Shown here: piece after piece, positions 1,408-18,940 of the stretch
Numbering within the stretch: position 1 is the first letter of the stretch
Layout of the letters: every line of letters starts with the position of its first letter
Assembly (NCBI GenBank): GCA_049969495.1
Contig: JBMFOT010000002.1
Location: forward strand, 4,406 to 68,405
Source of the DNA: Armatimonadota bacterium
GTDB lineage: Bacteria > Armatimonadota > HRBIN16
Direction: 5' to 3'
DNA: 64,000 bases
Notes under the pieces: generated by a model
Seen by the model: only the letters and a program-made list of their open reading frames with translations
What the model was told of the DNA's origin: nothing
The model's database searches: none
Translations under genes and position numbers: made by a program

Positions 1408-2939
1408 CCTGCGCCCGCGCCCTGCTCCTGCTCCACTTCCTTGCGCAACAGGCGCTTGAGAATCTTGCCTGTGCCGGACTTGGGTAGCGACTCGCGGAAC
1501 TCCACACGCCGCGGTACCTTGAAATTCGCCAGTCGCTGGCGGCAGTAGCGAATGATTTCACGCTCGGTTGCCTCTGCACCGGGCTTCAGCACCACGTAAG
1601 CCACCGGAGCCTCACCGCGTAGTTCGTCGTACTCCCCGACAACAGCCGCCTCTGCTACTGCCGGATGAGTGTGCAGCACCTCCTCCACCTCGCGTGGGTA
1701 GACGTTCAGCCCCCCCACGATAATCATGTCCTTCTTGCGGTCCACGATGTAGAAGTAGCCGTCCTCATCCATCTTGCCGATGTCGCCGGTGTGGTACCAG
1801 CCATTGCGCATCGCTTCGGCGGTGGCTTCGGGGAGGTTATAGTAGCCCAGCATCACGTTCTCGCCGCGCACCACAATCTCGCCCAGCTCGCCCACCGGCA
1901 CTTCGTTGTCGTTGTCGTCGAAAATTTTCATCTCCACACCGGGGATAGGCAGTCCGATACTGCCCGGCTTGCGCACGCCTTTCAGAGGGTTGACCGCTGT
2001 CACCGGCGAGCACTCGGTAGGTCCGTCGCCCTCTAAGATGACCACGTTGAACCGCTTCTCGAAGGCTTCCATGACCGCCACCGGCATCGGTGCACCGCCC
2101 GACACGCAGATGCGCAGAGACGACAGGTCATACTCTCGCGGCAGCTGGTAGTGCAGGATGGCGGCATACATCGTCGGCACTGCCGGGAAGATAGTGCAAC
2201 GATGTTTCTCTATCGTTTCCAGCACGCCGTCGGGGGTGAACCGCTCTACCAGCGTGCTGGTACAGCCCACGTAGATAGAGAGGTGCATACACACCGTGCC
2301 TGCGAAAGCGTGAAACAGCGGCAACACGGTCACGAAATTATCGGAGGGCGTCATCTCTAGCACCGACACGCACGATTCGCAGTTGGCAATCAGGTTGCGG
2401 TGACTGAGCATACAACCTTTGGGGAGGCCCGTCGTGCCGGAGGTGTATAGGAACACGGCAGGATGCTCGCGCGGGTTAAAATCCGGCGGGGTAGGCACGG
2501 GGGCAGGCTGTTGCCACAAGGCGTCGAAAGACAGAAAGTCCGGAGCCTCGCCGCCTGCCAGCAGGAGATGTTGCAAGGAGGGTACCTGTGGCTTCACCGC
2601 CCGCAACACATCCGCCAGCATCGGTATCGTCACCGCCGCTTTGACACCGGCGTCGTTGTAGATGTAGCGCAGCTCGTCCGGTTTGAGCAAGGGGTTCGCT
2701 GGTACCGCAATCGCCCCCAGTGCTTGACAGGCGTAATACGCCATGACGAACTGCGGCACGTTCGGAAGCAGAATCGCTACCCGGTCGCCCTTTCCGATAC
2801 CCAGTTCTTGGAGCCCCTTCGCGACCCCGCTCACCGCGCCGAGCAGCTGTCCGTAAGAGATCGGCTTATCACGGAAGATGAGAGCAGTTTGATCTGGATG
2901 GCGCTGGGTGGTTTGTAAAAGCATTTCGAAGAGATTCAT
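1404..2939 (-). CDS. Long-chain-fatty-acid--CoA ligase (AMP-binding enzyme family)
   Basis: AMP-binding motifs YTSGTTGLPKG and TGDIGKMDEDGYFYIVDRKKDMII are present. I place the start at the internal Met (MNLFEMLL), which has an AGGAGG Shine-Dalgarno about 8 nt upstream. The longer ORF (to 3068) would start at TTG inside the upstream divergent gene's RBS. Confidence 0.85.
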   Translation of the reverse strand: MNLFEMLLQTTQRHPDQTALIFRDKPISYGQLLGAVSGVAKGLQELGIGKGDRVAILLPNVPQFVMAYYACQALGAIAVPANPLLKPDELRYIYNDAGVKAAVTIPMLADVLRAVKPQVPSLQHLLLAGGEAPDFLSFDALWQQPAPVPTPPDFNPREHPAVFLYTSGTTGLPKGCMLSHRNLIANCESCVSVLEMTPSDNFVTVLPLFHAFAGTVCMHLSIYVGCTSTLVERFTPDGVLETIEKHRCTIFPAVPTMYAAILHYQLPREYDLSSLRICVSGGAPMPVAVMEAFEKRFNVVILEGDGPTECSPVTAVNPLKGVRKPGSIGLPIPGVEMKIFDDNDNEVPVGELGEIVVRGENVMLGYYNLPEATAEAMRNGWYHTGDIGKMDEDGYFYIVDRKKDMIIVGGLNVYPREVEEVLHTHPAVAEAAVVGEYDELRGEAPVAYVVLKPGAEATEREIIRYCRQRLANFKVPRRVEFRESLPKSGTGKILKRLLRKEVEQEQGAGAG

Positions 2940-3053
2940 TATCCTGTTACACCTCCTCTCTGGTGAATTCGCAAAAAGAGGAGCTTTTTCCTGCGAAAGG
3001 GAAGATTGCTGCGCTGACGCTCGAAATGACACAGACGGAAAGGAGGTACAAGG

Positions 3054-4085
3054 ATGGCATTCGAGCAATGGGGTATCGGCATCGTTGGTTTAGGCGGCAT
3101 TGCCAATATACACCTGCAAGCCTACCGCAACCTGGGACTAAAGGTGGTGGGTGGTGCAGACATCGACCCCGAACGAGTCAAACTGATGCAGGCGAAATGG
3201 GAACTGTCCATCGCCACCACCGATGTGGAGTCTCTCATCGCCCATCCCGAGGTGAAGATTGTGGATGTGGCGGCGCCGCATTTCCTGCATGTGCGCGAAC
3301 CGATTTTCCGCTCGGCAGCGAAGTACGGCAAAGCGTTGTTCGTGCAGAAACCGCTGGAGCAGTATTATGAGAACGCCAGAAAACTGGTGCGCATTGCCGA
3401 AGAGGCGGGCATCCCGCTGATGGTGAATCAGAACTCGGTATTTGTGCCCGGCTTTCAGGTGATAGAGCGGTACCTACGCGAGGGGACTATTGGCAAGCCG
3501 TACTACTGCCAGATCGAAAACCGCAACTGGATTGACCTGAGCGCGCATCCCTTCTACGGAAAGCAGGAGCGCTGGGTGCTCAGCGACATGGGGGTGCACC
3601 ATCTCGCGCTGGTGGTGCACTGGTTCGGCAGCTGGCAGAGCGCATACGCCATGATGGGGCGCGATCCCTCGCAAAAAGGCATTGTCGGCGACACATGGAA
3701 CGTGATGAACATCCGCTTCGAGAGCGGGACGCAGGCGTGCATCATCAATAACTGGTGCTACCGTGGACATTTGCCACGCCCACATTCTGTGGAGGAGGTG
3801 GTGATTCAGGGGGATCAGGGAGCGATCACAGGCACCAGCGAGGAGGTGGTCATCGTGACTGCCGACCCGCCTGCCGAGATACGCCCACGGTTCGCTGGCA
3901 AATGGTTTCCTGACGCTTTCTCCAACGCCATCTCGCACTATATCCGCTCTCTGGAAGAGGGCAAGCCCTACCTGTGCAGCGGCAGACACAACCTGCAGGT
4001 GGTCGCGCTCATTGAAGCGGGCTACCGCTCGGTGCAGGAAGGACGCGAGGTGACCCGTAAAGAGATAATGGGCGAAGATGCCTGA
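3054..4085 (+). CDS. Gfo/Idh/MocA family NAD(P)-dependent oxidoreductase
   Basis: N-terminal Rossmann motif GIGIVGLGGIANIHLQAY. An AGGAGG Shine-Dalgarno lies 7 nt upstream. It is paired with a downstream ThuA-like gene. Confidence 0.8.
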   Translation: MAFEQWGIGIVGLGGIANIHLQAYRNLGLKVVGGADIDPERVKLMQAKWELSIATTDVESLIAHPEVKIVDVAAPHFLHVREPIFRSAAKYGKALFVQKPLEQYYENARKLVRIAEEAGIPLMVNQNSVFVPGFQVIERYLREGTIGKPYYCQIENRNWIDLSAHPFYGKQERWVLSDMGVHHLALVVHWFGSWQSAYAMMGRDPSQKGIVGDTWNVMNIRFESGTQACIINNWCYRGHLPRPHSVEEVVIQGDQGAITGTSEEVVIVTADPPAEIRPRFAGKWFPDAFSNAISHYIRSLEEGKPYLCSGRHNLQVVALIEAGYRSVQEGREVTRKEIMGEDA

Positions 4086-4111
4086 AAACGGAAGCCATAC
4101 GGAGGAGAAAA

Positions 4112-4861
4112 ATGAGCAAACTGCGTGTTCTGGTATGGGATGAGAACCCGCCTCATGCGCCCAAAGCATTGTACCCGAACAGCATCAACGGCGCAGTGGC
4201 AGAAGGGCTGAAAGAGCTAGACCAAGAGGGGGTGCTGGAGGTGCGCACCGCCAACCTCGACGAACCGGAGCAGGGCTGCCCCGCTGACTTGCTGGCGAAC
4301 ACCGATGTGCTGATGTGGTGGGGGCACGCCCGGCACGGCGAGGTGAAAGACGAACTGGCATCACGCATCGCGGAGCGTGTGCAGCAGGAAGGCATGGGCT
4401 TCATCGCCCTGCACTCGGCACACTATTCCAAGCCGTTCCGAGCGGTGCTGAACTGCACTGGCCACCTGAAAGGCGGTTGGCGCGAACACGAGCCGCCGGA
4501 GGATGAGCACATTCGGGTGTGCGCCCCTTGGCATCCGATTGCCAAAGGCGTGGAGGACTTTGTCTTGAACGGTGAGGAGATGTACGGCGCGCCGTTTGAC
4601 GTGCCGCCGCCGCTGGTGGTGATACTGCAGTCCTACTTCCCGCTGGGCGGCGAGACCTTCCCGTCCGGCTTGTGCTGGACGGTAGGCAAAGGCATAGACC
4701 CGAACTTCACCTCAGGGCCCGGTGGTGGCGTCGGGCAGGGCGAAGGCATCGGGCGTGTGTTCTACTTCCGCCCGGGGCACGAGACCATGCGCACCTATTT
4801 CCATCCCATCGTGCGCCGCATCCTGTACAACGCGGTACTGTGGGTAGGAAAGAGAGTTTAG
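4112..4861 (+). CDS. ThuA-like (trehalose-utilisation / glutamine-amidotransferase-like) protein
   Basis: About 250 aa. Composition and motifs (VLMWWGHARHGEV, ALHSAHYSKPF) fit the ThuA family. A GGAGGAG RBS is present. A ThuA partner next to a Gfo/Idh/MocA dehydrogenase is a common arrangement. Confidence 0.65.
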   Translation: MSKLRVLVWDENPPHAPKALYPNSINGAVAEGLKELDQEGVLEVRTANLDEPEQGCPADLLANTDVLMWWGHARHGEVKDELASRIAERVQQEGMGFIALHSAHYSKPFRAVLNCTGHLKGGWREHEPPEDEHIRVCAPWHPIAKGVEDFVLNGEEMYGAPFDVPPPLVVILQSYFPLGGETFPSGLCWTVGKGIDPNFTSGPGGGVGQGEGIGRVFYFRPGHETMRTYFHPIVRRILYNAVLWVGKRV

Positions 4862-5019: not shown

Positions 5020-7422
5020 CTATCTCTCCTTCAGCACTATCACCGTCAACGAATGCCTGGGGAAAATATATCGGAATTGTGGAGCAACCCCGCTCAGCCC
5101 GCGTTCGACCGGCGCAACGCGCATGGGGTTTTCCAGTGAGTTCTCGTCGTCAAGGCTCTCGCTGGTGAGAGTCACCGCTTTGCCTAACGGATGCACCGAG
5201 CGCACACCCTGCAGGCGAATCTCCGTCTCTAGCGCCCTGTCGGAGACGTTCACCACTTTCAGAATCATCTCACGGGTCCGGTGGTTCCGGCTGGCAACGG
5301 CGTAGAGGGCAGGTAGCGGTTTGTCCTCGAAGTCGTGTATCAATTTCTCGTCCAGATAGCATCGGATGCGTGCGCCCTGTACCTCGATGCGGATGTCGTA
5401 CCATCGCCCTGTTTCGATACTGCCGGGCACCTCGTTGCTCACGATGCTCTTGCCGCCGCCAACGCACTTCTCCACAGCGTGTTTGGAGTTGCCCCAACCG
5501 CCGAGGTTCCACCAGTACCAGTTGTTATCGTCGCGCACGCGGAACATAATGAGAAAGCCTTCTGCTCCCCCGATCTTGCGCGCGCGCAGCGTCAGGGTGT
5601 AATCTGCCCAATTGGGGTCGCCCACAACCGCACGGCAATCGGTGGTCAGGCTGTTCTGGCGATAGCTGCCATCCACGACCTGCCAGTCGCCTCGTACCAC
5701 ACGCCAGCCGGCGGTTCCCTGCGCAAAATCGGCGGCAAATAGGGTCTGCCCGTGATGAGTGACCTTCACATCCCGGTACTCTGCTTGTGTCGCCCACGTG
5801 CCCAGCCCGATTGCCCCGCGTGTTTCGGTGACCGCTATGGCAGGTGCATCTACCTTCAAGGGCAGCACGTGTGTGCCACGGTAAACGCTGAACAGCTTCT
5901 GCACGTAATAAGAGGGCGTGCCATACACGCGCGAGCTGTCAAAACCGATCAGGTCGGGGTTCCACTGTCGGGCATTCACGTTCACAAACAAGGGTGCATA
6001 CGCCGCCATAATAACGATATCGCTGTTGCGCTCTATACCCGTCATGAAAGCGGCTTCGGCGATTGCCGCGCGCAGGTTGCCTGTTCCACAGCCCTGAGTG
6101 ACGGCGTACTCGCCGACAAAAATCTTCGGTCCCTTGCGGTCGTAGCGGTCGTAACGGTTCGCTTGTGAGATGAACCACTCGGGGCTGGAGTAGTAGTGCT
6201 CGTCCAGAATGTCCATCGGTCGGCTGCGTACCGGCGAGTTGGCGATAACCTGAATATGGGGAAAGCGCGCCTTGATGGCGTCGTAAAAGCGGGCGTATCG
6301 CTCCTCGTAGGCGGACCCCCAGTTCTCGTTGCCGACCTCCACGAATCGCAAGGGGAAGGGTTTGGGATGTCCGTTTCTCGCCCGCAGCGCGCCCCACTTG
6401 CTGGTAGGCGGCCCAATAGCGTATTCAATGGCAGCGAGCGCGTCCTCGATCCACTCGTCCAGTGTGTCCATCGGCACAACATCGCCGTTACGATACTGGC
6501 ATGCCATCCCGCAGTTGACCACAAGCAGAGGTTCTGCGCCCAGATCCTCGCACATCTGCAGGTACTCGTGCAAGCCCAGTCCCTGCGTGGTGGTATAGCC
6601 CCACACGCACCAGCGCGCCGGGCGTTCGGCGATGTCGCCCAGCGTATTGCGCCAGCGCAGCGCATTGCTCATGCGGTCCCCTTCTACAAAGCAACCGCCC
6701 GGAAAGCGCAGGAAGGAAGGCTTGAGCTCCGCCAGCATCTGCGCAAGGTCTTTACGTAAGCCGTTTGGTCGCCCCTTGAAGGTGTCTACCGGCATCAGTG
6801 AAACCATGTCCAGCCACAACACACCCGGCGACGTTGCCGTGATGACCAGTCGGGCCCGGGCATCGGTCGCGCGAGATGTCAGGGTTGCCACAAACCGTTT
6901 CCATTCCCTACCGATGTTCCGTACCCTGTGCTGGGCATATACCTCACCGTCTGCTGCTTGCAGACTAACCACCAGCTCGCCGCGAAAGCGGTTGTCGCAC
7001 CGCGCATACAGCGACAGCCGGTACCGCTCGCCCTTTTCTATCCCGATGCCCCAGTAGCCCTCGTTGACCAGACTGACTCGCGGCGATCCCTCCCCTATCT
7101 CCCAGCGCAGACTGCGCAGGTTGCGTGCGTTCAGGGGATAGTCGCTGTCTACCGCGATATGCGACTTACCCCTATCGCCCCCGACGAGAGTCCACGCTTG
7201 CGGAACGGGAGCGTCCTCGAAAGAGCGATTGCGCACCAGTTCGGCGTAGATTCCCCCGTCGCCCGCGTGGTTAATCTCCTCGAAGAAGATGCCCCATAGT
7301 ACAGGGCTGATAGGGGTACCCTGTGCAGAAGCATCCACTTCCACTACCGACTTTTGAGCCTGCACGAGAACAGAGGGCAGAATCATGCAGGTCAGGATGA
7401 TGAGGAGTCTAACCAACCGCAC
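5020..7422 (-). CDS. Secreted GH51 alpha-L-arabinofuranosidase with accessory (CBM-like) domains
   Basis: Signal peptide MRLVRLLIILTCMILPSVLVQAQ, with a GTG start and a GGAGGG RBS. GH51 signatures FLRFPGGCFVEG and VEVGNENWG are present. At 800 aa it is longer than a core GH51, so it carries extra N- and C-terminal domains. Confidence 0.75.
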   Translation of the reverse strand: MRLVRLLIILTCMILPSVLVQAQKSVVEVDASAQGTPISPVLWGIFFEEINHAGDGGIYAELVRNRSFEDAPVPQAWTLVGGDRGKSHIAVDSDYPLNARNLRSLRWEIGEGSPRVSLVNEGYWGIGIEKGERYRLSLYARCDNRFRGELVVSLQAADGEVYAQHRVRNIGREWKRFVATLTSRATDARARLVITATSPGVLWLDMVSLMPVDTFKGRPNGLRKDLAQMLAELKPSFLRFPGGCFVEGDRMSNALRWRNTLGDIAERPARWCVWGYTTTQGLGLHEYLQMCEDLGAEPLLVVNCGMACQYRNGDVVPMDTLDEWIEDALAAIEYAIGPPTSKWGALRARNGHPKPFPLRFVEVGNENWGSAYEERYARFYDAIKARFPHIQVIANSPVRSRPMDILDEHYYSSPEWFISQANRYDRYDRKGPKIFVGEYAVTQGCGTGNLRAAIAEAAFMTGIERNSDIVIMAAYAPLFVNVNARQWNPDLIGFDSSRVYGTPSYYVQKLFSVYRGTHVLPLKVDAPAIAVTETRGAIGLGTWATQAEYRDVKVTHHGQTLFAADFAQGTAGWRVVRGDWQVVDGSYRQNSLTTDCRAVVGDPNWADYTLTLRARKIGGAEGFLIMFRVRDDNNWYWWNLGGWGNSKHAVEKCVGGGKSIVSNEVPGSIETGRWYDIRIEVQGARIRCYLDEKLIHDFEDKPLPALYAVASRNHRTREMILKVVNVSDRALETEIRLQGVRSVHPLGKAVTLTSESLDDENSLENPMRVAPVERGLSGVAPQFRYIFPRHSLTVIVLKER

Positions 7423-7641
7423 CGCTATTTCCCTCCCGATCTCGCAATGTATTGTTTCTTCGCTCAGTCTTCTTCTTTGGGTGGCGAATCTCCTGTTGAG
7501 CCAATGGAGCCTGCATCATGTATAGTTAGGAAAGAGACGCTATGAGGTAAAATGGAGATGATAGAAAAGTAACCTATCGCCACCTATCTGCGTCTTAATA
7601 AATGGAAACCTCTATCGCGCGCGACAGGGGAGGTGAGACCA

Positions 7642-8472
7642 ATGCGTATGAAGTGGCTGTGGGTTCTGGCGTTGCTTGTGCTTGTTCTGGGCACAGTGAG
7701 CCCGGCGTACAGTCAGCAGGAAGGCGGACAACAACCGCCTCGCATCACCTTGAATCTGGAGTCCGCCAGCATCGCCGACGCCTTGAAGCTGTTGTTCCGC
7801 TCCGTCGGCTACAACTACACGCTGGACGAGTCGGTGGTGGGAGGTTACGTCACCGTCTCGCTGAAGGACGTCACCTTCGAGACGGCGCTGCGTACCATTC
7901 TGCGCGCTGCGAACCCGCCATTGACTTACCGCGTGGACGGCGGGGTGTACATCATCACGCCCAAGGTAGAGACGTACGAGACCGGCGTTGCAGAGCCTAC
8001 GGTGGAGGAACAGCCACAACCCCAGGTTCGCACCGAGAAAATCATGTTGCAGCATCTGGACTCCCTGGCGGTTGCCCAGCTGCTCGGCGGAACCGCGGTT
8101 GCGCTCAATCAGACCGGCTGGACGTATAGCGGTGGCTTCGGCGGTTTCGGCGGCTACGGCGGCTATGGCGGCTACGGCGGTCTTGGAGGCTATGGCGGCT
8201 ATGGCGGCTTCGGTGGCGGCCTCGGCGGCTGGGGCGGTAGCGGCTGGGCTGGCGGCGGCTGGGGCGGCCTTGGCGGCTTCGGCGGCGGCCTTGGCGGCTG
8301 GGGTGGTGGCCTCGGCGGTTGGGGCGGTGGCTTCAACCGCGGCGGCTGGGGCGGCGGCTTCGGCGGTTGGGGCGGGGGCTTCAACCGCGGCGGCTGGGGC
8401 GGCGGTTGGGGCGGTGGCTTCAATCGCGGCGGCTGGGGCGGTGGCTTCGGCGGTTGGGGGCGTGGCTTTTAG
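7642..8472 (+). CDS. Secreted protein: secretin-N (STN/NolW-like) domain followed by a Gly/Trp/Tyr/Phe-rich low-complexity tail
   Basis: The ATG at 7642 has a GGAGGTGA Shine-Dalgarno 7 nt upstream (an in-frame GTG sits at 7633). Signal peptide MRMKWLWVLALLVLVLGTVSPAYSQQ. Residues about 35-110 (ITLNLESASIADALKLLFRSVGYNYTLDE...VTVSLKDVTFETALRTILRAANPPLTYRVDGGVYIITPK) fit the Secretin_N pattern. The C-terminal roughly 130 aa are repeats such as GGFGGYGGYGG and GGWGGGFNRGGWGGGF. A strong rho-independent terminator follows. Confidence 0.6.
   Translation: MRMKWLWVLALLVLVLGTVSPAYSQQEGGQQPPRITLNLESASIADALKLLFRSVGYNYTLDESVVGGYVTVSLKDVTFETALRTILRAANPPLTYRVDGGVYIITPKVETYETGVAEPTVEEQPQPQVRTEKIMLQHLDSLAVAQLLGGTAVALNQTGWTYSGGFGGFGGYGGYGGYGGLGGYGGYGGFGGGLGGWGGSGWAGGGWGGLGGFGGGLGGWGGGLGGWGGGFNRGGWGGGFGGWGGGFNRGGWGGGWGGGFNRGGWGGGFGGWGRGF
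8100..8470 (+). repeat. Coding tandem repeats (about 48-nt unit, GGCTTCAACCGCGGCGGCTGGGGCGGCGGCTTCGGCGGTTGGGGCGGG-like) encoding the Gly-rich tail
   Basis: At least three near-identical DNA units are visible (GFNRGGWGGGFGGWGGG x3), preceded by shorter GGYGG units. These repeats also produce spurious Ala-rich and Pro-rich ORFs on other frames. Confidence 0.7.
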
Positions 8473-8563
8473 CCCGCTCTCGTGAGCGACGGCTACCCGG
8501 CGCATTGCGTCCCCACAGCAAACCAGCCTTGCCTGGAGAGTATCCATGTCCAGAACCCTAAAA

Positions 8564-8592
8564 GCACCGGACGGACTGTCCGGTGCTTTTTT
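8564..8592 (+). terminator. Rho-independent terminator (bidirectional position)
   Basis: GCACCGGAC-ggact-GTCCGGTGC followed by TTTTTTG. It lies between the convergent 7642..8472(+) and 8609..11068(-) genes. Confidence 0.75.
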
Positions 8593-8608
8593 GCGTGCTC
8601 GCTGGGTA

Positions 8609-11068
8609 CTACTCCCCAACCCGCCACTCCAGGATGCCTGCAGAGAACCCTGCTCTGAGCTCTGCCTCAATGCGAATAGCCGTCGTCACCACAGGCGTGA
8701 ACTCCACGCGGTTGAAGGCGTCCCTACGCATCTCGGCACTCTGCACGTTCTGCACAGGATGCCATTGCTGACCGTCAAACCAGAGCACCCGCCACCGCTC
8801 GGGAAGTCGGCACTGCCCTCCTGCCGGCTCGTCGTCGAACCAGTACACCTCGCACCACGAGAGGCGGCGCGGCTTCGCGAAGACGTACTGCACCCATTCT
8901 GTAGTACCGACGTGGTCCCACCAGGTGAAACGGGGGATACTCATGTCGGCGGAAGAGGAGGGAACACGCCCATCATTGAGCGCGAGCACTGTGTCCAGAT
9001 GCCAGCAGTGCGAGGCTTCAGCGTATACCGCATCGGTCTCCTGCCAGACCTTTGCGTCCGGTGCCTCGCTGATTTGAGGAAACGCCGACACCCTCAATCG
9101 GGCACATCCCATCGGAATCAGGGTGATTTGCTCTATCGGCTCGTCCGAGCGCACGGGCGAATCCTGCACCTCGCCAATAAGACCGTTCGCCTCCAGACGC
9201 CACTGCGGGATGCGCTTGCCTTTCGCCTTGAGCAAGACAGGTGCGTTGTCGGCAGTAAACGGCTGCTCGGCGACCTTGCCCGGCTTTTTGACCAGTTCAA
9301 AGGAGCTTTGCGGATTATTCACGTCGACCACTAATCCGTAGTTCCACGCGGTAGTGGGGAAGACCTCGTATGCCGGGAAACGGTCTGTGCCGCCATAGCG
9401 TGCCCACCGCTCACCGATCAGCAAGGAGAACGCCAGCGGTCCGCGATGCACCGAGATGGTATGGCGGTTCTTCTCCCATACCTTCAGGTACAGAGGCATC
9501 GGTAGGGTCAGCTTCACGTGGTCACCGTGACGCCATTCGCGCTGCAAGACAATCCAGCCCTTCGCAGGGGCGGGCACAGCTTGCCTGCGTCCGTTCACTT
9601 CCACCGCTGGCGTCGCGCACCAGCCCGGCACGCGCAATACCAGCGGGAATCGCACCGGTTTCGGGGTGCTGACCGCGAAGGAAATCTCTTCCCCAAAGGG
9701 ATAGTCTGTCTCTTCGCGGATTTCTACCGTCTCTCCGTTGCCCACCTTCGCCTTTACCCGACTGGGCGCATAGAGTACGGCTGCCAGTCCGTTGCCCGCC
9801 GTTGCCATCCACAGGTGCTCGGCAAAGTAGGGCCACCCATGCGAGACGTTGTGCTGGCAACAGCGGTAATCGTAAGGGTTGTAGGAGAGCATATCGCCGG
9901 CGTTCTGCAGCATCGGCGACTTGCTCTGACGGTCCAGCTGCACCATGTTGGGCGCGGTAAGGTAGTGTAGACCTTTCAGGTCAGGCGTCATCGAGGCGGG
10001 CAGCGAGTTGAACGCTACCTCTTCGCAGCGGTCTGCCCACTTCGTGTCGCCCGTGATGCGGGTGAGCAGCTCGTGGCTGTACATCATCTCCACCATCGAG
10101 CAGGTCTCTGCCGCCTGTCGGGGACCGGTGAAGCCGGGGCGAGCGTTCTCATCCGCGCCAAACATACCGCCCGGCACCTGTCCGTAGATGCCCATCACCG
10201 TGTCGTACACCCGCTCGGTGGCTTTCAGGTAGCGGATGTCTGCTGTTTGCTGGTAGTACTGTGCCGGTTCGCGGAAGCCCTGGCTGATGTTGACGCCGTG
10301 CCAGGTGGGGATGTTGCCTGTCCAGTCGGCAGTGCGTTCGTGTGTGACGCGCGCAGCATCCAGCAGCCACTTTTCGCCCGTCAGGTTGTACAGCCAGTGG
10401 ATGGAGTCCAGATTATCACCGCCGCGAAACTTCTGCCAGCTGCCCGGCAGGAACTTCTCCAGCGGTATGGTCATCTGCCAGCGGAAATATTTGAGCATAA
10501 AAGGGATGACCCGTTTATCGCCGGTAGCCTCGTAGTGGGTGCGCAGAGCGTAAAGGGCTATCATGTTGGGCCAGAGGTCCATCTCCTTCAGGTTGCTTTC
10601 AGGACCAAAGTAACCGTCCTCACGCTGGCTGGCAAGGATGGCGTCTATCCACCTCCTCGATTCGGCGATAATACGTTCCTCACCCAGTAGGTAACCCAGC
10701 GAGGTGAATCCCTTCAGCCAGTAGGGGAGCTCTTCCCAACCACGTTCGCCCTCGCCTTTCGGGTGCGCCCATGCACTACCTTCCCATCGGCACCAGGGGC
10801 TGATTTCGGTGAGGCGACCGGTGAAGCCCTCCGCCATCAGCTCCAGCTGGTGACGCAGCCAGCCCTCCGGGCGGATAGAGCCGGTAGGCAGCTTGATGAG
10901 CGGACTGGGCAGCAAAGGGGCACGGTTGCCCGCGTAATATCGGTTTGCAGGAGCGGTTGGAGGTGTTGCTACCACTTTCATTGTTGTTTCCCTCGTGTGA
11001 GAAATGGTTTGGGCGTATGTGAGTACAGCCTGGTGTGCGACTAACAACGTCAGAAGCCACGCTTTCAT
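8609..11068 (-). CDS. Secreted GH127/GH146-like (DUF1680) beta-L-arabinofuranosidase-like hydrolase with C-terminal discoidin-like domain
   Basis: Signal peptide MKAWLLTLLVAHQAVLTYAQ. An E-x-C motif (AAETCSMVEMM) and a CC pair (YDYRCCQHN) sit about 77 residues apart. This matches the Zn-binding Glu/Cys and Cys-Cys catalytic arrangement of GH127 HypBA1. The C-terminal ...GFSAGILEWRVGE resembles an F5/8 type C domain. Confidence 0.65.
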   Translation of the reverse strand: MKAWLLTLLVAHQAVLTYAQTISHTRETTMKVVATPPTAPANRYYAGNRAPLLPSPLIKLPTGSIRPEGWLRHQLELMAEGFTGRLTEISPWCRWEGSAWAHPKGEGERGWEELPYWLKGFTSLGYLLGEERIIAESRRWIDAILASQREDGYFGPESNLKEMDLWPNMIALYALRTHYEATGDKRVIPFMLKYFRWQMTIPLEKFLPGSWQKFRGGDNLDSIHWLYNLTGEKWLLDAARVTHERTADWTGNIPTWHGVNISQGFREPAQYYQQTADIRYLKATERVYDTVMGIYGQVPGGMFGADENARPGFTGPRQAAETCSMVEMMYSHELLTRITGDTKWADRCEEVAFNSLPASMTPDLKGLHYLTAPNMVQLDRQSKSPMLQNAGDMLSYNPYDYRCCQHNVSHGWPYFAEHLWMATAGNGLAAVLYAPSRVKAKVGNGETVEIREETDYPFGEEISFAVSTPKPVRFPLVLRVPGWCATPAVEVNGRRQAVPAPAKGWIVLQREWRHGDHVKLTLPMPLYLKVWEKNRHTISVHRGPLAFSLLIGERWARYGGTDRFPAYEVFPTTAWNYGLVVDVNNPQSSFELVKKPGKVAEQPFTADNAPVLLKAKGKRIPQWRLEANGLIGEVQDSPVRSDEPIEQITLIPMGCARLRVSAFPQISEAPDAKVWQETDAVYAEASHCWHLDTVLALNDGRVPSSSADMSIPRFTWWDHVGTTEWVQYVFAKPRRLSWCEVYWFDDEPAGGQCRLPERWRVLWFDGQQWHPVQNVQSAEMRRDAFNRVEFTPVVTTAIRIEAELRAGFSAGILEWRVGE

Positions 11069-11110
11069 TGTATCCCTCCAATCCTAAGGCGATTTTGCGT
11101 CTTCACCATG

Positions 11111-11184
11111 TTTGTTATGCTGAGCGTCAGCGAAGCATCTCAGAGTGGCGGTAATACGAGATTCTTCGCTTTGCTCAGAACGAC
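11111..11184. repeat. Inverted pair of a 27-nt interspersed repeat unit (family A; GTCATTCTGAGCGnAGCGAAGAATCTC-like), forming a long imperfect hairpin
   Basis: The left arm is TGCTGAGCGTCAGCGAAGCATCTC. The right arm is GAGATTCTTCGCTTTGCTCAGAAC (reverse complement GTTCTGAGCAAAGCGAAGAATCTC), with a 16-nt loop. The same unit recurs at about 24782, 55392, 55432 and, weakly, 62501. Confidence 0.5.
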
Positions 11185-11338
11185 AGCAAAGCAGAACCAC
11201 TCCGCCCATATCCAAATAATCAAGATGGACGAACCACGGGCGTGCCGACATCGTAAAGTTTCGAGGCAACACGGGAGAATGCCTGCAGGATCGAGGCGAC
11301 GGCAAACCTGCCGATGAGTCGAAAACCGTTGCATCATC

Positions 11339-11366
11339 ACGGCTCGGCAGGAGCTTCGCTCGTTGC
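11339..11366. repeat. Family B short repeat copy (CGGCTCGGCAGGAGCtTCGC..., partial)
   Basis: It shares the core CGGCTCGGCAGGAGC with the copies at 26900 and 62422. It lies immediately upstream of the 11363(+) gene. Confidence 0.4.
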
Positions 11367-13507
11367 CGGTGAACCCCAAAAACATGAAGAAGAGACGCGC
11401 GGACAAAAAGCCTGTCGAACCTCCGCAACCCCTGCGACGGGAGTTCAGTCTCTCCACATGGCTGTTGAGCGCGGCAGTGGTACTCGCGCCGCTGACTGCC
11501 GGTCGGCTGGAGGTGGGCAGCGAGCCAGTAGAACCCTCCCTGCGCGGGGTAGTAACCGCCCTGTTTACCACCGGAGCGCTGTTGCCGCTCGCCATCTGGT
11601 GGATTACCCTGCTTGCGCTCGCTGCCGCCATCTGGGAATGGAAACAGTGTCCCGCTGGCGATGACGCGGTTCCGCGTGCTGCGCGCGTGCTGGCGACTCT
11701 GTTCGTGCTGTGGATGCTGGCATCGGTAGCGGTTTCGGTGTATCGTTGGGGTACGGTGGTCGCATGGAGCCACTGGGCGGTAGTCATCGCCACGGCGTGG
11801 CTCTTCTCGCGGAGGCGTGGAGAACAGGCGTTGACGGTTGCCCTTGCGCTGGCGTTAGCGGGCACTCTTGCTGCCGCCTTCGCCATGCGTGAGTACGCGG
11901 AGAACGCGCGCATCGTGCCGAACTGGCGCGTGTTCGGCACTTTCTTGAACCCCAATTTCCTGGCGGGCTACCTCTGCCTCACCATGCCCGTCACGTTGGG
12001 TTTGGCTCTCGCTCCCTGCCCCACGCAAACCTTGTCTTCTCCCAAAGGGGGAGGGGAACTGCGCTGGCTGTTGGGCTTCGGCGCATGGATGCAGATGGCG
12101 GCGATACTGCTCACGGGCTCGCGATTCGGTACGGCGAGCGCAGTGCTGGCTCTGATGGTACTGGCGGGATGGATGGCGTTCAACCGATCATGGAACCGCC
12201 AGCGTGCGCTGGTGTTCGGTATCGTCTGCCTGCTGGTGCTTGGCACAGCGTTCTTTACTGCCCGCTCGCTCGCCTCGCGTGTGACGACTCAGGCGGTGCA
12301 GGAAGGCGAACACTCAGGCGGATTTCGTGTGTGGACGTGGCGAGGCACGTTGCGTATGGCGCGGGCGCATCCTCTGCTGGGCACAGGGTTGGGAACCTAT
12401 GAGATAGCCTACCCGCGCTACGCCTTCGTGGGATTCACCCGAATGGCGCACAACTCCTATCTGCAGATTGCCGCCGAAGCGGGGTCGCCTGCGCTGATTC
12501 TGCTACTGGGCACGCTCGGCGTGCTGGCATGGACGGTATTGCGCACCGAGGTGCGCAATATGAATGGGATAATCGTGGGAAAATGGGATGCTCGCGTGCT
12601 CCGCGCGGGGCTGGCAGCAGCCATCGCCGCCGGGCTCGCACGCAACCTGATAGACTCCGACTGGTACATCTTTGCCTGCCTGTTCACCTTCTGGGCGATA
12701 GTGGGACTGATGCTCTCTGTCATCCCTCTCCCCTCAGGAGAGAGGCGGAAGGCAAGCGTCAACCGTCTCTATCTTGCCCACACCACCCTGCTGGCTGTTG
12801 CCTGGGTTGTGCTGACCTTGCGCATGGGGGGCGCGCTCAGCGCAAACAGCGCAAGCTGGAACCTGTCTCAGGGAATCCCCGACGAAGAGGGCTATCGGCA
12901 TGCACTGCGCTGGGAACCTTTCAACGGCGACCACTACCTCAGTTTGGGCATGCTCTCTATGAGCATGGCGCGTGCAGGTGACCTCTCGCGTGCAGAGGAC
13001 GCCCAAAAGTGGCTACGCCGCGCGGCAGAGCTGACGCCGCTCTCCAAAACGTGGTATCATCTGGGCAACCTGTATCGGGACATGCTGGGCGACCGCGACA
13101 GAGCCGTCGAAGCCTATCGCCATGCGCTGGAACTGGACCCGCACGCGCTGCGCGTCATGGCGGAGCTGGGCAAAACGCTGGAGCAACAGGGTAAACTGCA
13201 AGATGCGGAGAGGGTGTACCGGCGAATGCTGGAGATGGAATCGAGCGTATATAATCAGGTGCGTGCGGTGCCCGAGCTGCCCGAGGTGGACTACGCCTTC
13301 GCCTACGCCGGTCTGGCGCGGATCGCGAGGCAACAGGGCAAGCCGGGGAGCGAGGTGCGTGAGATGTACTCTCGCGCCCTGCGGATTCTGGACACCGACC
13401 GCGCTGCCCGAGAGAACAAGGTGATGTTATGGTCGCTGGTGCGTGCCCCGGAACGACAGCGCGCCCTGGATGAGTTACGGCAGGAGTGTGAACGCGCCCT
13501 GCGGTGA
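11363..13507 (+). CDS. Polytopic membrane protein with O-antigen ligase (Wzy_C)-like domain and C-terminal TPR repeats
   Basis: The RMAHNSYLQIAAEAGSPALILLLG motif is characteristic of Wzy_C. There are multiple TM helices and C-terminal TPR-like repeats (AVEAYRHALELDPHALRV...). The start is uncertain: TTG at 11363 per the ORF track, with an in-frame ATG 21 nt downstream. Confidence 0.6.
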   Translation: MPVNPKNMKKRRADKKPVEPPQPLRREFSLSTWLLSAAVVLAPLTAGRLEVGSEPVEPSLRGVVTALFTTGALLPLAIWWITLLALAAAIWEWKQCPAGDDAVPRAARVLATLFVLWMLASVAVSVYRWGTVVAWSHWAVVIATAWLFSRRRGEQALTVALALALAGTLAAAFAMREYAENARIVPNWRVFGTFLNPNFLAGYLCLTMPVTLGLALAPCPTQTLSSPKGGGELRWLLGFGAWMQMAAILLTGSRFGTASAVLALMVLAGWMAFNRSWNRQRALVFGIVCLLVLGTAFFTARSLASRVTTQAVQEGEHSGGFRVWTWRGTLRMARAHPLLGTGLGTYEIAYPRYAFVGFTRMAHNSYLQIAAEAGSPALILLLGTLGVLAWTVLRTEVRNMNGIIVGKWDARVLRAGLAAAIAAGLARNLIDSDWYIFACLFTFWAIVGLMLSVIPLPSGERRKASVNRLYLAHTTLLAVAWVVLTLRMGGALSANSASWNLSQGIPDEEGYRHALRWEPFNGDHYLSLGMLSMSMARAGDLSRAEDAQKWLRRAAELTPLSKTWYHLGNLYRDMLGDRDRAVEAYRHALELDPHALRVMAELGKTLEQQGKLQDAERVYRRMLEMESSVYNQVRAVPELPEVDYAFAYAGLARIARQQGKPGSEVREMYSRALRILDTDRAARENKVMLWSLVRAPERQRALDELRQECERALR

Positions 13508-16415: not shown

Positions 16416-17363
16416 CTACCTGTATTCGCCTGCTACGAGCAGCTGGGCAACGTTACGGCACGTATCGGGGTCAGGCTGACGGCAGTTGTAGATGTTGTTG
16501 TCGTAGCCGTCGAACGGGAAGGTGCGCTCGCCAGGACGGCGGAAGCAGGTCCACTTCCAGAGATTGTTGGCGATGGCGCCCTGAATGCGTGTCCACTTCA
16601 CGTGCCCATCCGCAAACACGAAATGGACGCCCTTCAGGTGATTGACCAACCAGCCATACTGGCGTACTTTGCCATCCAGGCAGGGCGAGCCTGGAGCAGG
16701 CACATCTCCGCCAAATGGGTCACCTGGTGGGTTGCACCAGCAGCGTGCCAGAGCCCACGGACCGGTGTCCGGCTCGTAGTTCTTGCCGTCCTGCATCCAG
16801 ATGGTCTCCGCGGGCACATCGAGGTCAGCCAGCTTTCTGGGAGGATCCGCGTAGCCGGATTGATAGGCAGCAAGGTTGAAAACGGCGCCGTTGACCGTGT
16901 AACCACGCGGGAACCACAGATTTTGACTGCGAGGAACGTCGCACAGCGGATCACTGCGCAGCCAAGGCGAGCTCGGATGGCAGTGTGCCCAAGTCTCATC
17001 CATTGGTGAACCACGCCACGCATTGACGTTGTCGCCCAGCATCCGGGAGATTTGCGCCTTCGCATTGGGGCACTCATAGACCGGGAGGTTCTTGACGTAC
17101 GGAAAGATGCCGTACTTCCAGTTCGACCACGTCGCCCCGCCGTTACCGATGAACCGATTGTAGGGGAATGTCTCGTCGTAGTCCTGCACATACATCATCA
17201 CTCCCGTGCCCACCTGTTTGAGGTTGCTTAGGCAGGATGCTTGTCGCGCCTTCTCGCGCGCTTGGGCGAACACAGGGAACAGGATCGCCGCCAGTATCGC
17301 GATAATCGCGATGACCACCAGCAGCTCAATGAGCGTAAAGCCGCGCTTCATGACTGTACGCAC
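16416..17363 (-). CDS. DUF1559 protein with prepilin-type N-terminal cleavage/methylation domain (pseudopilin-like)
   Basis: The N-terminus [46 protein letters not shown] is the class III signal/pilin motif. The C-terminal [10 protein letters not shown] fits the DUF1559 H-X9-DG region. Confidence 0.8.
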
Positions 17364-17833: not shown

Positions 17834-18940
17834 GTGATACCGTTGCATCTGAACTCGCGTTTGCGCACACCGCTCTACGTGCAAATCGTGGAGCAAGTGG
17901 AAGCAGCGGTCAGCTCGGGGCAGTTGACGCCGGGCACGCCGCTGTGGTCTGCTCGCGCCATCGCCCGACACTACGGCATCAGCTACCAGACCGCCGAGCG
18001 AGCGTTGACCCTGCTGGCGCGACGGGGGGTGGTGGAACGGACTCGACGGGGAACCATCATCGCCGCCAGCCGTCCGAAACAGCCGGTGCAACAGCACCTG
18101 GTTGCCCTCATCTACACGTGGCAGATACCGGGCGCACGTCCCTCCTACTCGGTGGGCGAGATGCGCATGTTGCATGCCGCCGCAGAGGAGTGCGCCCGGC
18201 ATCTATGGGGAAGCCTGCTACTCCATTTCCCCGATAAAAGCGCGTCCGCCAGCTACCTGCAGGAATGGGAACGGCATCACCGTTTCGACGCCGCGCTGGT
18301 GTTCGGCCCCCTGCACGACGAGGGGTTATTGTGGATGCAGCGAAGGGGGTACCCGGTGGTGGTCATTGATGCCGAGCCCGAGGTTCCGGTTCCCCGCGTG
18401 GTGCAGGCGAACCGTGAAGGCACCTATCTGGCGGTACGTGAGCTGATTCGGCTGGGACATCGACGCATCGGCTTCTTCACCGGTCACTATATGCCGCATT
18501 ATGCCCAGCGATTTGAAGGCTACATGCAGGCACTGCAAGAAGCGGGCATCACCCCCGAGGCAAATTGGGTGATGCAGCACGGTCAGCCTCGTCCTACCGT
18601 CCAGGAGGCGTTGAAGCGGCTGCTGGAAGTGCGTCCACCCCTGACGGCTATCGTGGGAGCGTCGGACATCCTGCTGGCGTTCGCCTATCCCGCGATTACG
18701 GAGATGAACGTGCGGGTGCCGGAAGAGCTCTCGCTCATCGGTTTCGATGACGAGCCTTTCTGCACCACCATGCAGCCGCCTCTATCGTCGGTGCGCGTCG
18801 ACCTCGAGCAACTGGCGCGCACGGGTGTGCGCCTGCTGATGGATATGATGGAAGGCAAACCGGTTCCACAGCGGGTAGAGATACCTGCTCAGGTGGTGCT
18901 GCGCGATTCGTGCGCACCGCCACACTCGCAGACGACTTGA
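17834..18940 (+). CDS. Transcriptional regulator with N-terminal GntR-type wHTH and C-terminal LacI/GalR-type periplasmic-binding-fold domain (AraR-like architecture)
   Basis: GTG start. The HTH segment is ARAIARHYGISYQTAERALTLLARRGVVER. The C-terminal part (LIGFDDEPFCTTMQPPLSSVRVDLEQL) resembles a LacI-family sugar-binding domain. Confidence 0.65.
   Translation: MIPLHLNSRLRTPLYVQIVEQVEAAVSSGQLTPGTPLWSARAIARHYGISYQTAERALTLLARRGVVERTRRGTIIAASRPKQPVQQHLVALIYTWQIPGARPSYSVGEMRMLHAAAEECARHLWGSLLLHFPDKSASASYLQEWERHHRFDAALVFGPLHDEGLLWMQRRGYPVVVIDAEPEVPVPRVVQANREGTYLAVRELIRLGHRRIGFFTGHYMPHYAQRFEGYMQALQEAGITPEANWVMQHGQPRPTVQEALKRLLEVRPPLTAIVGASDILLAFAYPAITEMNVRVPEELSLIGFDDEPFCTTMQPPLSSVRVDLEQLARTGVRLLMDMMEGKPVPQRVEIPAQVVLRDSCAPPHSQTT

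What the first reader, a model, noticed from the sequence alone, without database searches (positions are those of the whole stretch)
7642..8472. Secreted secretin-N-like domain fused to a Gly/Trp/Tyr/Phe low-complexity tail, embedded in an arabinan-degradation locus
The protein has a clean signal peptide, a consensus Shine-Dalgarno and a strong terminator, so it is very likely expressed. Its N-terminal domain of about 80 aa reads like a secretin-N/STN (NolW-like) module. That module normally occurs in outer-membrane secretins and TonB-dependent receptors, not as a stand-alone protein. The C-terminal roughly 130 aa are almost pure G/W/Y/F/N/R repeats (GGYGG, then GGWGGGFNRGGWGGGF x3), encoded by near-identical 48-nt tandem DNA units. 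This composition resembles eukaryotic glycine-rich structural or phase-separating proteins and is rare in bacteria. It could be a self-assembling matrix, tether or pilotin-like component. It sits between the GH51 and GH127 genes.
Basis: partly seen in the sequence, partly recalled or inferred. Interest (0 to 1): 0.72.

Follow-up and report, generated by a model that had tools for sequence, protein, structure and literature searches.

The report
Stand-alone PilQ-N0 paralogue with glycine/aromatic tail
This gene is a real, selected, exported protein that copies the front end of the type IV pilus outer-membrane channel (PilQ) and ends in a floppy glycine/aromatic tail. It is a displaced second copy of a gene that normally sits inside the pilus-machine operon of Armatimonadota, so its position between arabinan-degrading enzymes is probably neighbourhood, not function.

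Summary
ORF 7642-8472 (+) encodes 276 aa: a signal peptide, an STN/N0 domain (Pfam above gathering score; best fold matches are PilQ N0), the first strand-helix of an N1 domain, and a 113-aa tail (about 62% Gly, 23% evenly spaced Trp/Phe/Tyr, no acidic residues).

It is not a one-off. It belongs to an uncharacterised family in which every named member comes from Armatimonadota. The ancestral gene lies between the PilP-position gene and pilQ in a pilM-N-O-P-X-pilQ-aroK-aroB operon. X is collinear with the first ~170 residues of PilQ. Its tail starts where these PilQ proteins carry their own Gly-rich insertion inside N1. The PilN-, PilO- and PilP-position proteins also carry low-complexity segments.

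The window gene is a second, displaced paralogue ("type A", Trp-enriched tail). It is fixed at a GH51-PfkB-X-GH127 locus in one clade, and 7 of 9 species representatives carry both copies. Its N-terminal part is under strong purifying selection (dN/dS 0.03-0.10).

Best reading: a periplasmic accessory subunit of the type IVa pilus secretin/alignment complex. A link to arabinan degradation is unsupported. Repeat number is assembly-sensitive.

The parts
7528..7641 (+). Conserved 5' region (presumed promoter and 5'UTR), including the Shine-Dalgarno GGAGG at 7629-7633
   Evidence: Homology to relative L015 resumes at window 7528, after a 200-bp stretch that replaces the PfkB gene found in relatives. 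GGAGG lies 8 nt before the ATG. No sigma-70 consensus was found.
7642..8472 (+). CDS of the N0-stub-tail protein (276 aa), a 'type A' displaced paralogue
   Evidence: It is 100% identical to NCBI MGC8782856.1, 'STN domain-containing protein [Armatimonadota bacterium]', which is annotated from the second Met.
7642..7713 (+). Sec signal peptide (residues 1-24, no lipobox)
   Evidence: Sequence inspection. Relatives also have hydrophobic N-termini, but type A and type B signal peptides are unrelated in sequence.
7738..7965 (+). Secretin-type N0 / STN domain (residues 33-108; beta-alpha-beta-beta-alpha-beta-beta)
   Evidence: Pfam STN above gathering score. PDB PilQ N0 hits. AF2 pLDDT 89-96. Foldseek top hits are 4ar0 and 4av2, the latter at rmsd 2.0 A over 77 columns and 30% identity. 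dN/dS is 0.03-0.10.
7966..8025 (+). Variable acidic, Pro/Gln-rich linker (residues 109-128)
   Evidence: Least conserved part of the N-terminal region in the alignments. Low pLDDT.
8026..8130 (+). N1 stub: first strand and helix of a secretin N1 domain (VRTEKIMLQHLDSLAVAQLLGG...GWTYS, residues 129-163)
   Evidence: K133, I134, Q137, H138, D140 and G150 are invariant in the family. The stub is collinear with R[TE]EK[IM]xLQ[HY] at the start of N1 in the cognate PilQ proteins. NCBIfam PilQ and PDB 6w6m alignments extend through it. AF2 predicts strand plus helix at low confidence.
8131..8469 (+). Gly/Trp/Phe/Tyr low-complexity tail (residues 164-276), ending in the conserved R-G-F
   Evidence: Composition and conserved C-terminal motif. 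Aromatic residues are evenly spaced (gap 4.4 +/- 1.3; 0 of 5000 shuffles as even), never adjacent, and there is no D/E. AF2 predicts coil with pLDDT below 40.
8293..8468 (+). 48-nt tandem repeat (3.9 copies, 81% matches) encoding GGWGGGFGGWGGGFNR
   Evidence: TRF. Repeat number is uncertain in short-read assemblies.
8560..8592 (.). Hairpin flanked by an A-run and a T-run between the convergent genes, read here as a bidirectional intrinsic terminator
   Evidence: RNA fold -24.9 kcal/mol, z = -3.3. It lies between the stop at 8472 (+) and the GH127 stop at 8609 (-). Use in both directions is inferred from the flanking A- and T-runs.

Best explanation
The gene encodes a Sec-exported, soluble periplasmic accessory subunit of the type IVa pilus (T4aP) secretin/alignment complex.

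Origin. It arose by an old partial duplication of the 5' end of pilQ, covering the signal peptide, the N0 domain, the linker and the first beta-alpha of N1. The copy is truncated inside the Gly-rich loop that these PilQ proteins carry within N1.

Proposed mechanism (inferred).
- The conserved N1 stub is a fold-upon-binding element. It may pack against the split N1 of PilQ.
- The disordered tail has evenly spaced aromatic residues separated by glycines and a basic-aromatic C-terminus. It would make weak multivalent contacts with the similar low-complexity segments of the PilN-, PilO- and PilP-position proteins and PilQ, or with peptidoglycan. This would add a flexible layer around the periplasmic conduit.

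The window copy. It is a second paralogue (type A, Trp-enriched tail). It left the operon and became fixed at a GH51-PfkB-X-GH127 locus in one Armatimonadota clade. It most likely still serves a secretin machine, not arabinan breakdown.

Shown: domain identity, paralogy to PilQ, operon context of the sister copy, co-residence of both copies, purifying selection, and conservation of the tail type.
Inferred: localisation, binding partners and the role of the tail.
For: 1. N0 identity. Pfam STN is above its threshold. The best sequence and fold matches are PilQ N0 domains.
2. Operon context in five divergent lineages. X lies in pilM-N-O-P-X-pilQ-aroK-aroB in L001/L002, L005, L006, L008 and L031. 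L031 is a 5.19-Mb contig recorded as ctg82166l in assembly ERZ21831265. Consecutive accessions or locus tags give the same adjacency in two more lineages (MCS6830571/2; ACYC1M_18090/18095).
3. PilQ keeps its own N0, so X is an extra paralogue, not a split secretin.
4. X and the PilQ N-terminus are collinear through the N1 start motif. BLASTP gives 30% identity over 117 aa (E = 1e-7). X-X identities (24-76%) exceed X-PilQ identities (21-28%), which fits one old duplication.
5. PilQ carries an insertion of roughly 100-130 aa, Gly-rich in part, exactly where X's tail begins. The PilN-, PilO- and PilP-position proteins carry Gly/Met/Pro or Ser-rich tails in the four lineages whose sequences were read.
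6. Both copies occur in one MAG, GCA_052745455.1, and in 7 of 9 species representatives.
7. dN/dS is 0.03-0.10 within type A at dS 0.7-1.0, as tight as the operon copy at 0.03-0.05.
8. Tail length (77-117 aa), composition and the C-terminal R-G-(G)-F motif are maintained in frame.
9. Published work shows PilQ N0 binds the PilP C-domain (PMC3441751). A Gly/Pro-rich flexible PilP analogue, PilW, is proposed to bridge the Thermus machine (PMC13039148).
Against: - The window copy is not in a pil operon, and the 64-kb window has no pil genes.
- Type A has kept its synteny with GH51, PfkB and GH127 across nine species. A locus-related function therefore cannot be excluded.
- No interaction, localisation or expression data exist.
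- The PilP-position protein could not be confirmed as PilP/HR by sequence. Pfam hits were weak and there was no PDB hit.
- The N1 stub is modelled at low confidence.
- The role proposed for the tail rests on composition and patterning only. Even aromatic spacing follows trivially from tandem repetition.
Confidence: 0.6

Rival explanations
1. Regulatory decoy or assembly factor, not a structural subunit. The free N0 domain competes with PilQ N0 for the PilP-position protein, or chaperones PilQ protomers before ring assembly. This would tune how many machines assemble. The two paralogues would give differential control.
For: The evidence is the same homology and operon context as for the main explanation. 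X lacks any membrane anchor or secretin domain. A second copy outside the operon, with its own 5' region and terminator, would suit independent regulation.
Against: A decoy has no obvious need for a conserved 80-120-aa tail with a conserved C-terminal motif. The gene lies inside the operon just before pilQ, so the two may be co-expressed. That fits a component made alongside PilQ better than an inhibitor. There are no direct data either way.
Confidence: 0.15
2. Type A has been recruited to carbohydrate use. The Trp/Tyr/Phe-rich tail binds arabinan or plant-wall polysaccharide, or tethers the neighbouring secreted GH51/GH127 enzymes. Alternatively the N0 domain couples them to a secretin-dependent export route.
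For: GH51-PfkB-X-GH127 synteny is conserved in all nine species with type A. The tail shifted from Phe-rich (type B) to Trp-rich (type A). Both GHs begin with hydrophobic, signal-peptide-like N-termini. Aromatic side chains are typical sugar-stacking residues (general knowledge).
Against: X runs convergent to GH127 and divergent from GH51, so it is not co-transcribed with either. The mature N0 and stub stay close to the operon copy (dN 0.10-0.14) under the same constraint. No carbohydrate-binding module was detected. The synteny spans only shallow divergence (85-97% identity), so it may simply be inherited.
Confidence: 0.1
3. Cell-surface-signalling type STN module, as in the TonB-dependent transducer / FecR system, acting as a periplasmic signalling adaptor.
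For: The STN fold is shared with the FecA, PupA and FoxA signalling domains and with FecR/PupR C-domains, and these appear lower in the Foldseek list.
Against: The best sequence and fold hits are PilQ-type N0 domains at 27-30% identity, against 14-23% for TonB-dependent receptors and anti-sigma factors. The sister copy is embedded in pilMNOPQ. No plug, barrel, FecR or sigma genes are adjacent to X in the window.
Confidence: 0.03
4. Decaying remnant of a pilQ duplication, with a simple-sequence expansion or assembly artefact and no function.
For: Tail length varies from 77 to 117 aa among the complete genes. Assemblies often break or carry N-gaps in the repeat.
Against: dN/dS is 0.03-0.10 at dS up to about 1. 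The reading frame and the C-terminal R-G-F motif are preserved in all complete copies. The architecture persists across relatives at 35-45% identity, including a multi-megabase contig. The Shine-Dalgarno sequence and terminator are intact.
Confidence: 0.03

Closest known systems
PilQ (type IVa pilus secretin), N-terminal N0-N1 region
   Same: It has the same N0 fold and detectable sequence homology (27-30% identity to N. meningitidis and V. cholerae PilQ N0). It is collinear with the cognate Armatimonadota PilQ from the signal peptide through the first beta-alpha of N1. The sister copy is encoded immediately upstream of pilQ.
   Different: It has no secretin (PF00263) domain and no complete N1, and it cannot form an outer-membrane channel. 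It ends in a free low-complexity tail. It is a separate polypeptide present in addition to a PilQ that keeps its own N0.
Thermus thermophilus PilW / PilP (periplasmic connector between PilNO and PilQ)
   Same: The sister copy is encoded between pilO and pilQ. PilW is rich in Gly/Pro flexible sequence and is proposed to bridge a wide periplasm and stabilise PilQ (PMC13039148). X is likewise an operon-encoded periplasmic protein with long flexible Gly-rich sequence.
   Different: PilW and PilP carry an HR/GspC-like beta-domain and a membrane anchor. X carries a secretin N0 domain and a cleavable signal peptide. The Armatimonadota operon has a separate PilP-position gene as well as X.
Neisseria PilQ small basic repeats (SBRs)
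   Same: These are polymorphic low-complexity repeats within a T4P secretin-complex protein, and they influence the efficiency of pilus formation (PMC3441751).
   Different: SBRs are short basic repeats inside PilQ between its beta-domains. Here the repeats are Gly/aromatic, about 110 aa long, sit at the C-terminus of a separate N0 protein, and have counterparts in all the periplasmic subunits.
Sticker-and-spacer low-complexity domains (FG-nucleoporins, prion-like/RGG domains) and the GroEL C-terminal GGM tails
   Same: Composition and patterning match: Gly spacers with evenly spaced, never adjacent aromatic residues, a few Arg and no acidic residues. GGM repeats occur in the PilQ, PilN-position and X proteins of some lineages. 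The comparison to these systems rests on general knowledge.
   Different: There is no homology. The resemblance is compositional only. The setting is the bacterial periplasm. No evidence exists for phase separation, gelation or a barrier function.

Membership tests
Pfam STN (PF07660) / secretin N0 domain | Profile score at or above the curated gathering threshold | tested here: met
   36.7 bits against a gathering score of 28.4, residues 65-108.
Pfam STN (PF07660) / secretin N0 domain | beta-alpha-beta-beta-alpha-beta-beta fold superposable on solved N0 domains | tested here: met
   The AF2 N0 core has pLDDT 89-96. Foldseek top hits are PilQ N0 (4ar0; 4av2 at rmsd 2.0 A over 77 columns), LspD, XcpQ and V. 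cholerae PilQ.
Secretin (PilQ/GspD) family | C-terminal secretin domain (PF00263) forming the outer-membrane channel | tested here: not met
   No PF00263 hit even at E <= 10. The protein ends in the Gly-rich tail. NCBIfam PilQ and GspD scores are far below their cut-offs.
Secretin (PilQ/GspD) family | Complete N1 (Secretin_N, PF03958) domain after N0 | tested here: not met
   Only the first strand and helix are present (residues 129-150). There is no PF03958 hit.
T4aP pilMNOPQ gene cluster component | Encoded within the pilM-N-O-P-Q operon | tested here: not met
   The window copy lies between GH51 and GH127, and no pil genes occur in the 64 kb. The type B paralogue in the same genomes is in the operon.
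T4aP pilMNOPQ gene cluster component | Physical association with PilQ or PilP in the machine | not testable with these tools
   This needs AF-multimer, pull-down or cryo-ET. N0-PilP binding is known only for PilQ itself (PMC3441751).
Secretin pilotin (PilF/PilW/Tgl, GspS type) | Outer-membrane lipoprotein (lipobox Cys), TPR or small pilotin fold | tested here: not met
   The whole protein contains no Cys, so there is no lipobox. No TPR or pilotin family hit was found.
TonB-dependent transducer / FecR cell-surface signalling | STN fused to plug plus barrel, or to a FecR anti-sigma domain, with ECF sigma context | tested here: not met
   STN is the only Pfam domain. Neighbouring genes are GH51, GH127, ThuA and an oxidoreductase. 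TonB-dependent receptor and FecR structures rank below PilQ N0.
Phase-separating / hydrogel-forming low-complexity domains | Demonstrated condensate or gel formation driven by aromatic stickers | not testable with these tools
   Only composition and even aromatic spacing were shown. AF2 predicts disorder.

The most novel reading that the evidence does not exclude
In Armatimonadota the periplasmic half of the type IVa pilus machine is built around a cohesive low-complexity meshwork. Every periplasmic subunit examined (the PilN-, PilO- and PilP-position proteins and the PilQ N1 loop) contributes a Gly-rich segment. A dedicated extra subunit, this N0-stub-tail protein present in one or two paralogues, exists mainly to load 12-15 more sticker-and-spacer tails onto the secretin ring. 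The tails would form a gel-like sleeve or seal around the pilus conduit, analogous to FG-nucleoporins or the GroEL GGM tails. Alternatively they would act as an elastic connector across a wide periplasm. The Trp-rich type A paralogue would tune the sleeve's properties.
Probability: 0.15. Interest if true: 0.8.

Novelty: new variant of a known kind. Interest (0 to 1): 0.5.

Why it matters
T4aP machines are described as PilMNOPQ plus a pilotin or TsaP. This work indicates a conserved sixth operon-encoded periplasmic component in a poorly studied phylum. The component was made by copying the secretin's own docking domain and attaching a disordered Gly/aromatic tail.

Together with the low-complexity segments on the other periplasmic subunits examined, this raises a testable question. 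Do disordered, weakly cohesive sequences play a structural or barrier role inside a bacterial trans-envelope machine?

It also has practical value. It corrects a misleading genomic-context inference (arabinan locus). It gives annotators a rationale for naming these 'STN domain-containing / HofQ-like' proteins. It flags that their repeat tracts routinely break or collapse in short-read assemblies.

Tried and rejected
- AF2 on the full-length protein with 26 close homologues gave a poor model (pLDDT 40.6). It was redone on residues 23-167 with a 56-sequence diverse alignment.
- 'Split PilQ' was my first idea. I rejected it because the downstream PilQ keeps its own N0/STN (L006 scores 43 bits).
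- The sigma-70 promoter scan found nothing and the terminator scan missed the real hairpin. The hairpin was confirmed by folding.
- An exact look-up of the window protein's contig failed because it is not on record.
- I tried to locate the window lineage's pilQ through PilQ homologues P0067 and P0069. Those Logan contigs all start about 30 nt upstream of pilQ, because assembly breaks in the repeat. The question was solved through accession proximity, then a same-MAG look-up and the genome scan.
- A PDB sequence search with the PilP-position protein gave only a spurious low-complexity hit. Its PilP/HR identity remains positional, with weak Pfam hits.
- The cluster look-up of ten distant representatives returned no taxonomy. 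Taxonomy came from the third homologue search instead.
- Four literature searches found no description of this family.
- I asked whether tail composition co-varies between X and the other subunits within a genome. There is no strict matching. In L008, for example, X is G/S/N/F while PilQ is GGM.
Full report
**1. What is in the sequence**

The ORF at 7642-8472 (+) is real. GGAGG lies 8 nt upstream of the ATG. An alternative GTG at 7633 sits inside that Shine-Dalgarno sequence, so the ATG is the likely start.

The product has 276 aa, arranged as follows:
- a hydrophobic signal peptide with no Cys (residues 1-24);
- a folded domain (about residues 33-108);
- an acidic, Pro/Gln-rich linker;
- a short conserved segment, VRTEKIMLQHLDSLAVAQLLGG...GWTYS (residues 129-163);
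- a 113-residue tail with about 62% Gly, 10% Trp, 9% Phe, 5% Tyr, 4 Arg and no Asp/Glu.

TRF reports a 48-nt unit, 3.9 copies and 81% matches at 8293-8468. The units are similar but not near-identical.

A 13-bp hairpin with a U-tract at 8560-8592 folds at -24.9 kcal/mol (z = -3.3). It sits between this gene and the convergent GH127 gene. The flanking genes are GH51 (5020-7422, -) and GH127 (8609-11068, -). The long antisense and alternate-frame ORFs across the repeat are by-products of GC-rich repeat DNA.

**2. The N-terminal domain is a secretin N0 domain of the PilQ type**

- Pfam STN scores 36.7 bits against a gathering score of 28.4.
- The NCBIfam PilQ model aligns residues 34-149 with its own N-terminus.
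- The best PDB sequence hits are N. meningitidis PilQ N0 (4ar0, E = 1e-5) and V. cholerae PilQ (6w6m). The 6w6m alignment runs on into N1.
- A first AF2 model of the whole protein was poor (pLDDT 40.6) and predicted the tail as coil.
- A second model of residues 23-167, built on 56 diverse homologues, gave pLDDT 89-96 for a beta-alpha-beta-beta-alpha-beta-beta core.
- Foldseek placed PilQ N0 (4ar0; 4av2 at rmsd 2.0 A over 77 columns and 30% identity), LspD and XcpQ N0 at the top. TonB-receptor signalling domains and FecR-type domains ranked lower.

The protein has no secretin domain and no complete N1. It is not a secretin.

**3. The architecture is a family trait**

A first search found 41 clusters. 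Every hit that carries an organism name is from an Armatimonadota MAG. Apart from truncated entries and one chimera (P0041), those whose sequences were read are 194-274 aa and carry a Gly/aromatic tail, down to a 38%-identical relative with a GGM/GGY tail.

A profile search of 1.84 billion cluster representatives gave 4164 hits at E <= 1e-3 and 981 at E <= 1e-10. About 30 short single-domain hits were inspected. Nearly all repeat the same plan:
- a signal peptide, N0 and a linker;
- a 'KIxLNFADAxDIAxAFGG' stub;
- a low-complexity tail (GGF, GGM, GGY, GN or SN types) that usually ends in a basic and/or aromatic residue.

Other hits carry two to six tandem N0 copies. In a third search with a trimmed profile, every hit with an organism name more specific than 'bacterium' was Armatimonadota. 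I found no paper describing the family.

**4. Genomic context of relatives**

In five divergent lineages the gene (called X here) lies in a conserved cluster, pilM - pilN-like - pilO-like - PilP-position gene - X - pilQ - aroK - aroB. The lineages are:
- L001/L002 (73% identity to the window protein);
- L005 (78%);
- L008;
- L006 (38%);
- L031, a 5.19-Mb contig recorded as ctg82166l in assembly ERZ21831265.

Consecutive accessions or locus tags show the same X-pilQ adjacency in two more lineages.

The downstream PilQ (560-593 aa) retains its own STN/N0, Secretin_N and Secretin domains. X is therefore an additional N0 protein, not a split secretin.

**5. Origin**

X is collinear with the first ~170 residues of its cognate PilQ. 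The match covers the signal peptide, N0, the linker and the N1 start motif R[TE]EK[IM]xLQ[HY] with its following helix. BLASTP of the window protein against L005 PilQ gives 30% identity over 117 aa (E = 1e-7).

X proteins resemble each other (24-76%) more than any PilQ (21-28%). This fits one old duplication.

In these PilQ proteins, N1 is interrupted straight after that helix by an insertion of roughly 100-130 aa, Gly-rich in part. The insertion is G/F/Y-rich in L005 and pure GGM in L008. The rest of N1 ('IIAVDVDNSLIV...') follows it. X's tail begins at exactly that position.

The simplest history is a 5' partial duplication of pilQ truncated within the loop.

**6. A system-level oddity**

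In the four lineages whose sequences were read, the PilN-, PilO- and PilP-position proteins also end in, or contain, long Gly/Met/Pro or Ser-rich low-complexity segments. X is one of several carriers of such sequence in this machine.

**7. The window gene is a displaced second paralogue**

The 64-kb window has no pil genes. Accession proximity suggested that single MAGs hold two copies, and this was confirmed. GCA_052745455.1 carries:
- a window-like copy at GH51-PfkB-X-GH127 (L013);
- an operon copy at pilMNOP-X-pilQ-aroKB (L014).

A scan of GTDB species representatives found 16 loci in 9 genomes, and 7 genomes carry both types. All type A loci share the GH51(-)-PfkB(+)-X(+)-GH127(-) arrangement wherever the contig extends far enough.

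The window has lost PfkB. About 1.2 kb in relative L015 is replaced by 200 bp at 7328-7527. Homology resumes 114 nt upstream of the start codon.

**8. Selection and the tail**

Nei-Gojobori estimates on the N-terminal 163 codons are:

| Comparison | dN/dS | Note |
|---|---|---|
| Within type A | 0.03-0.10 | dS 0.7-1.0 |
| Within type B | 0.03-0.05 | |
| Type A vs type B | 0.06-0.11 | mature part |

The displaced copy is as constrained as the operon copy.

Tails are 77-117 aa long where complete. The frame and a C-terminal R-G-(G)-F motif are preserved. Type A tails are Trp-enriched (9-14% W, 3-9% F). Type B tails are Phe-enriched (3-7% W, 12-16% F).

Aromatic residues are evenly spaced (gap 4.4 +/- 1.3). 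None of 5000 shuffles was as even, and aromatic residues are never adjacent. This is partly a trivial result of tandem repetition.

A caveat applies to repeat number. Five of the 25 loci examined run off the contig inside the tail. Two have 100-N gaps there. Four Logan contigs begin about 30 nt upstream of pilQ. Repeat number in any short-read assembly, including this window, is therefore uncertain. The intact gene on the multi-megabase L031 contig indicates that such tails are not assembly artefacts.

**9. Mechanism (inferred)**

Secretin N0 domains are the docking sites for the HR-type domain of PilP or GspC. This has been shown for N. meningitidis PilQ N0 and PilP (PMC3441751).

In Thermus, the Gly/Pro-rich PilW at the PilP position is proposed as a flexible connector needed for PilQ assembly or stability (PMC13039148).

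I therefore propose that X is a periplasmic accessory subunit with three working parts:
- The N0 domain binds the PilP-position protein and/or the PilQ N0 ring.
- The conserved but poorly modelled N1 stub folds on binding, possibly against the split N1 of PilQ.
- The tail makes weak multivalent contacts with the other low-complexity segments or with peptidoglycan.

Type A probably plays the same role with altered tail chemistry or separate regulation. A decoy or assembly-factor role is the main variant.

A carbohydrate-related role for type A cannot be excluded, because its synteny is conserved. It has no positive support beyond adjacency and Trp enrichment. The gene is also not co-transcribed with either GH.

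**10. Verdict**

- The arabinan context is most likely incidental, and stand-alone STN proteins are common in this phylum.
- This is an uncharacterised variant of a known kind: a stand-alone PilQ-N0 paralogue with a low-complexity tail, serving as a sixth conserved gene of the pilMNOPQ cluster in Armatimonadota.
- Interest is moderate. It would rise if the low-complexity segments prove to form a functional meshwork in the machine.

Noticed in passing
L005:7181-9891 and 10840-12546; L006:318-1989 and 2901-4661; L008:6217-9069 and 10001-11782; L031:4244-6892 and 7695-9377: The periplasmic T4aP alignment proteins (PilN-, PilO- and PilP-position) carry long Gly/Met/Pro or Ser-rich low-complexity segments. 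The L005 PilO- and PilP-position proteins end in EEY. PilQ has an insertion of roughly 100-130 aa, Gly-rich in part, splitting its N1 domain; in L008 it is pure GGM repeats.
   Followed up: partly
window 7328-7527 (compare L015:6695-7895): The PfkB-family sugar kinase gene lies between GH51 and X in the other type A loci that extend that far. It is missing here, with about 1.2 kb replaced by 200 bp. No PfkB homologue was found elsewhere in the window.
   Followed up: yes
L009-L012 (start about 30 nt upstream of pilQ); L016, L017, L021, L022, L027 (contigs end inside the tail); L013 and L014 (100-N gaps inside the tail): Short-read assemblies break or are gapped at the GGC-rich tail repeat. Tail lengths in databases, and possibly in this window, are unreliable, and many entries are annotated as 'partial'.
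   Followed up: partly
P0162 (410 aa), P0163 (637 aa), P0166 (315 aa): Relatives carry 2-6 tandem N0/STN copies. In P0162 and P0166 these are followed by the same N1 stub and a Pro/Gly-rich tail ending in IILGL or TIIGL. This is a multi-N0 branch of the family with unknown context.
   Followed up: no
window 16416-17363 (-), 17834-18940 (+), 18971-19681 (+): Two prepilin-type N-methylation plus DUF1559 (pseudopilin-like) genes flank a GntR/LacI-type regulator about 8-11 kb downstream. No other pilus or secretion machinery genes were found in the part of the window that was annotated.
   Followed up: no
P0041 (175 aa, ENA, 958-nt contig): The first 48 residues of an X homologue are joined to an ABC-transporter ATPase fragment (PF00005). 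This is probably a chimeric contig or a local rearrangement.
   Followed up: no
L005:5823-7158: pilM is called as two overlapping ORFs (243 and 209 aa) in GCA_026003175.1, where relatives have one gene of 443-446 aa. This is either a frameshift or an assembly error.
   Followed up: no
window 5020-7422 (-): The GH51 arabinofuranosidase carries an N-terminal CBM_4_9 module. It also has a 3-keto-disaccharide-hydrolase-like (PF06439) module inserted within its C-terminal domain. This architecture is shared by the type A loci L004 and L013.
   Followed up: no
window 13514-16366 (+) and 11363-13507 (+): A 950-aa protein with VWA and GATase1-like domains lies next to a 714-aa O-antigen-ligase (Wzy_C) plus TPR membrane protein. 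Both sit just beyond GH127 and appear unrelated to the finding.
   Followed up: no
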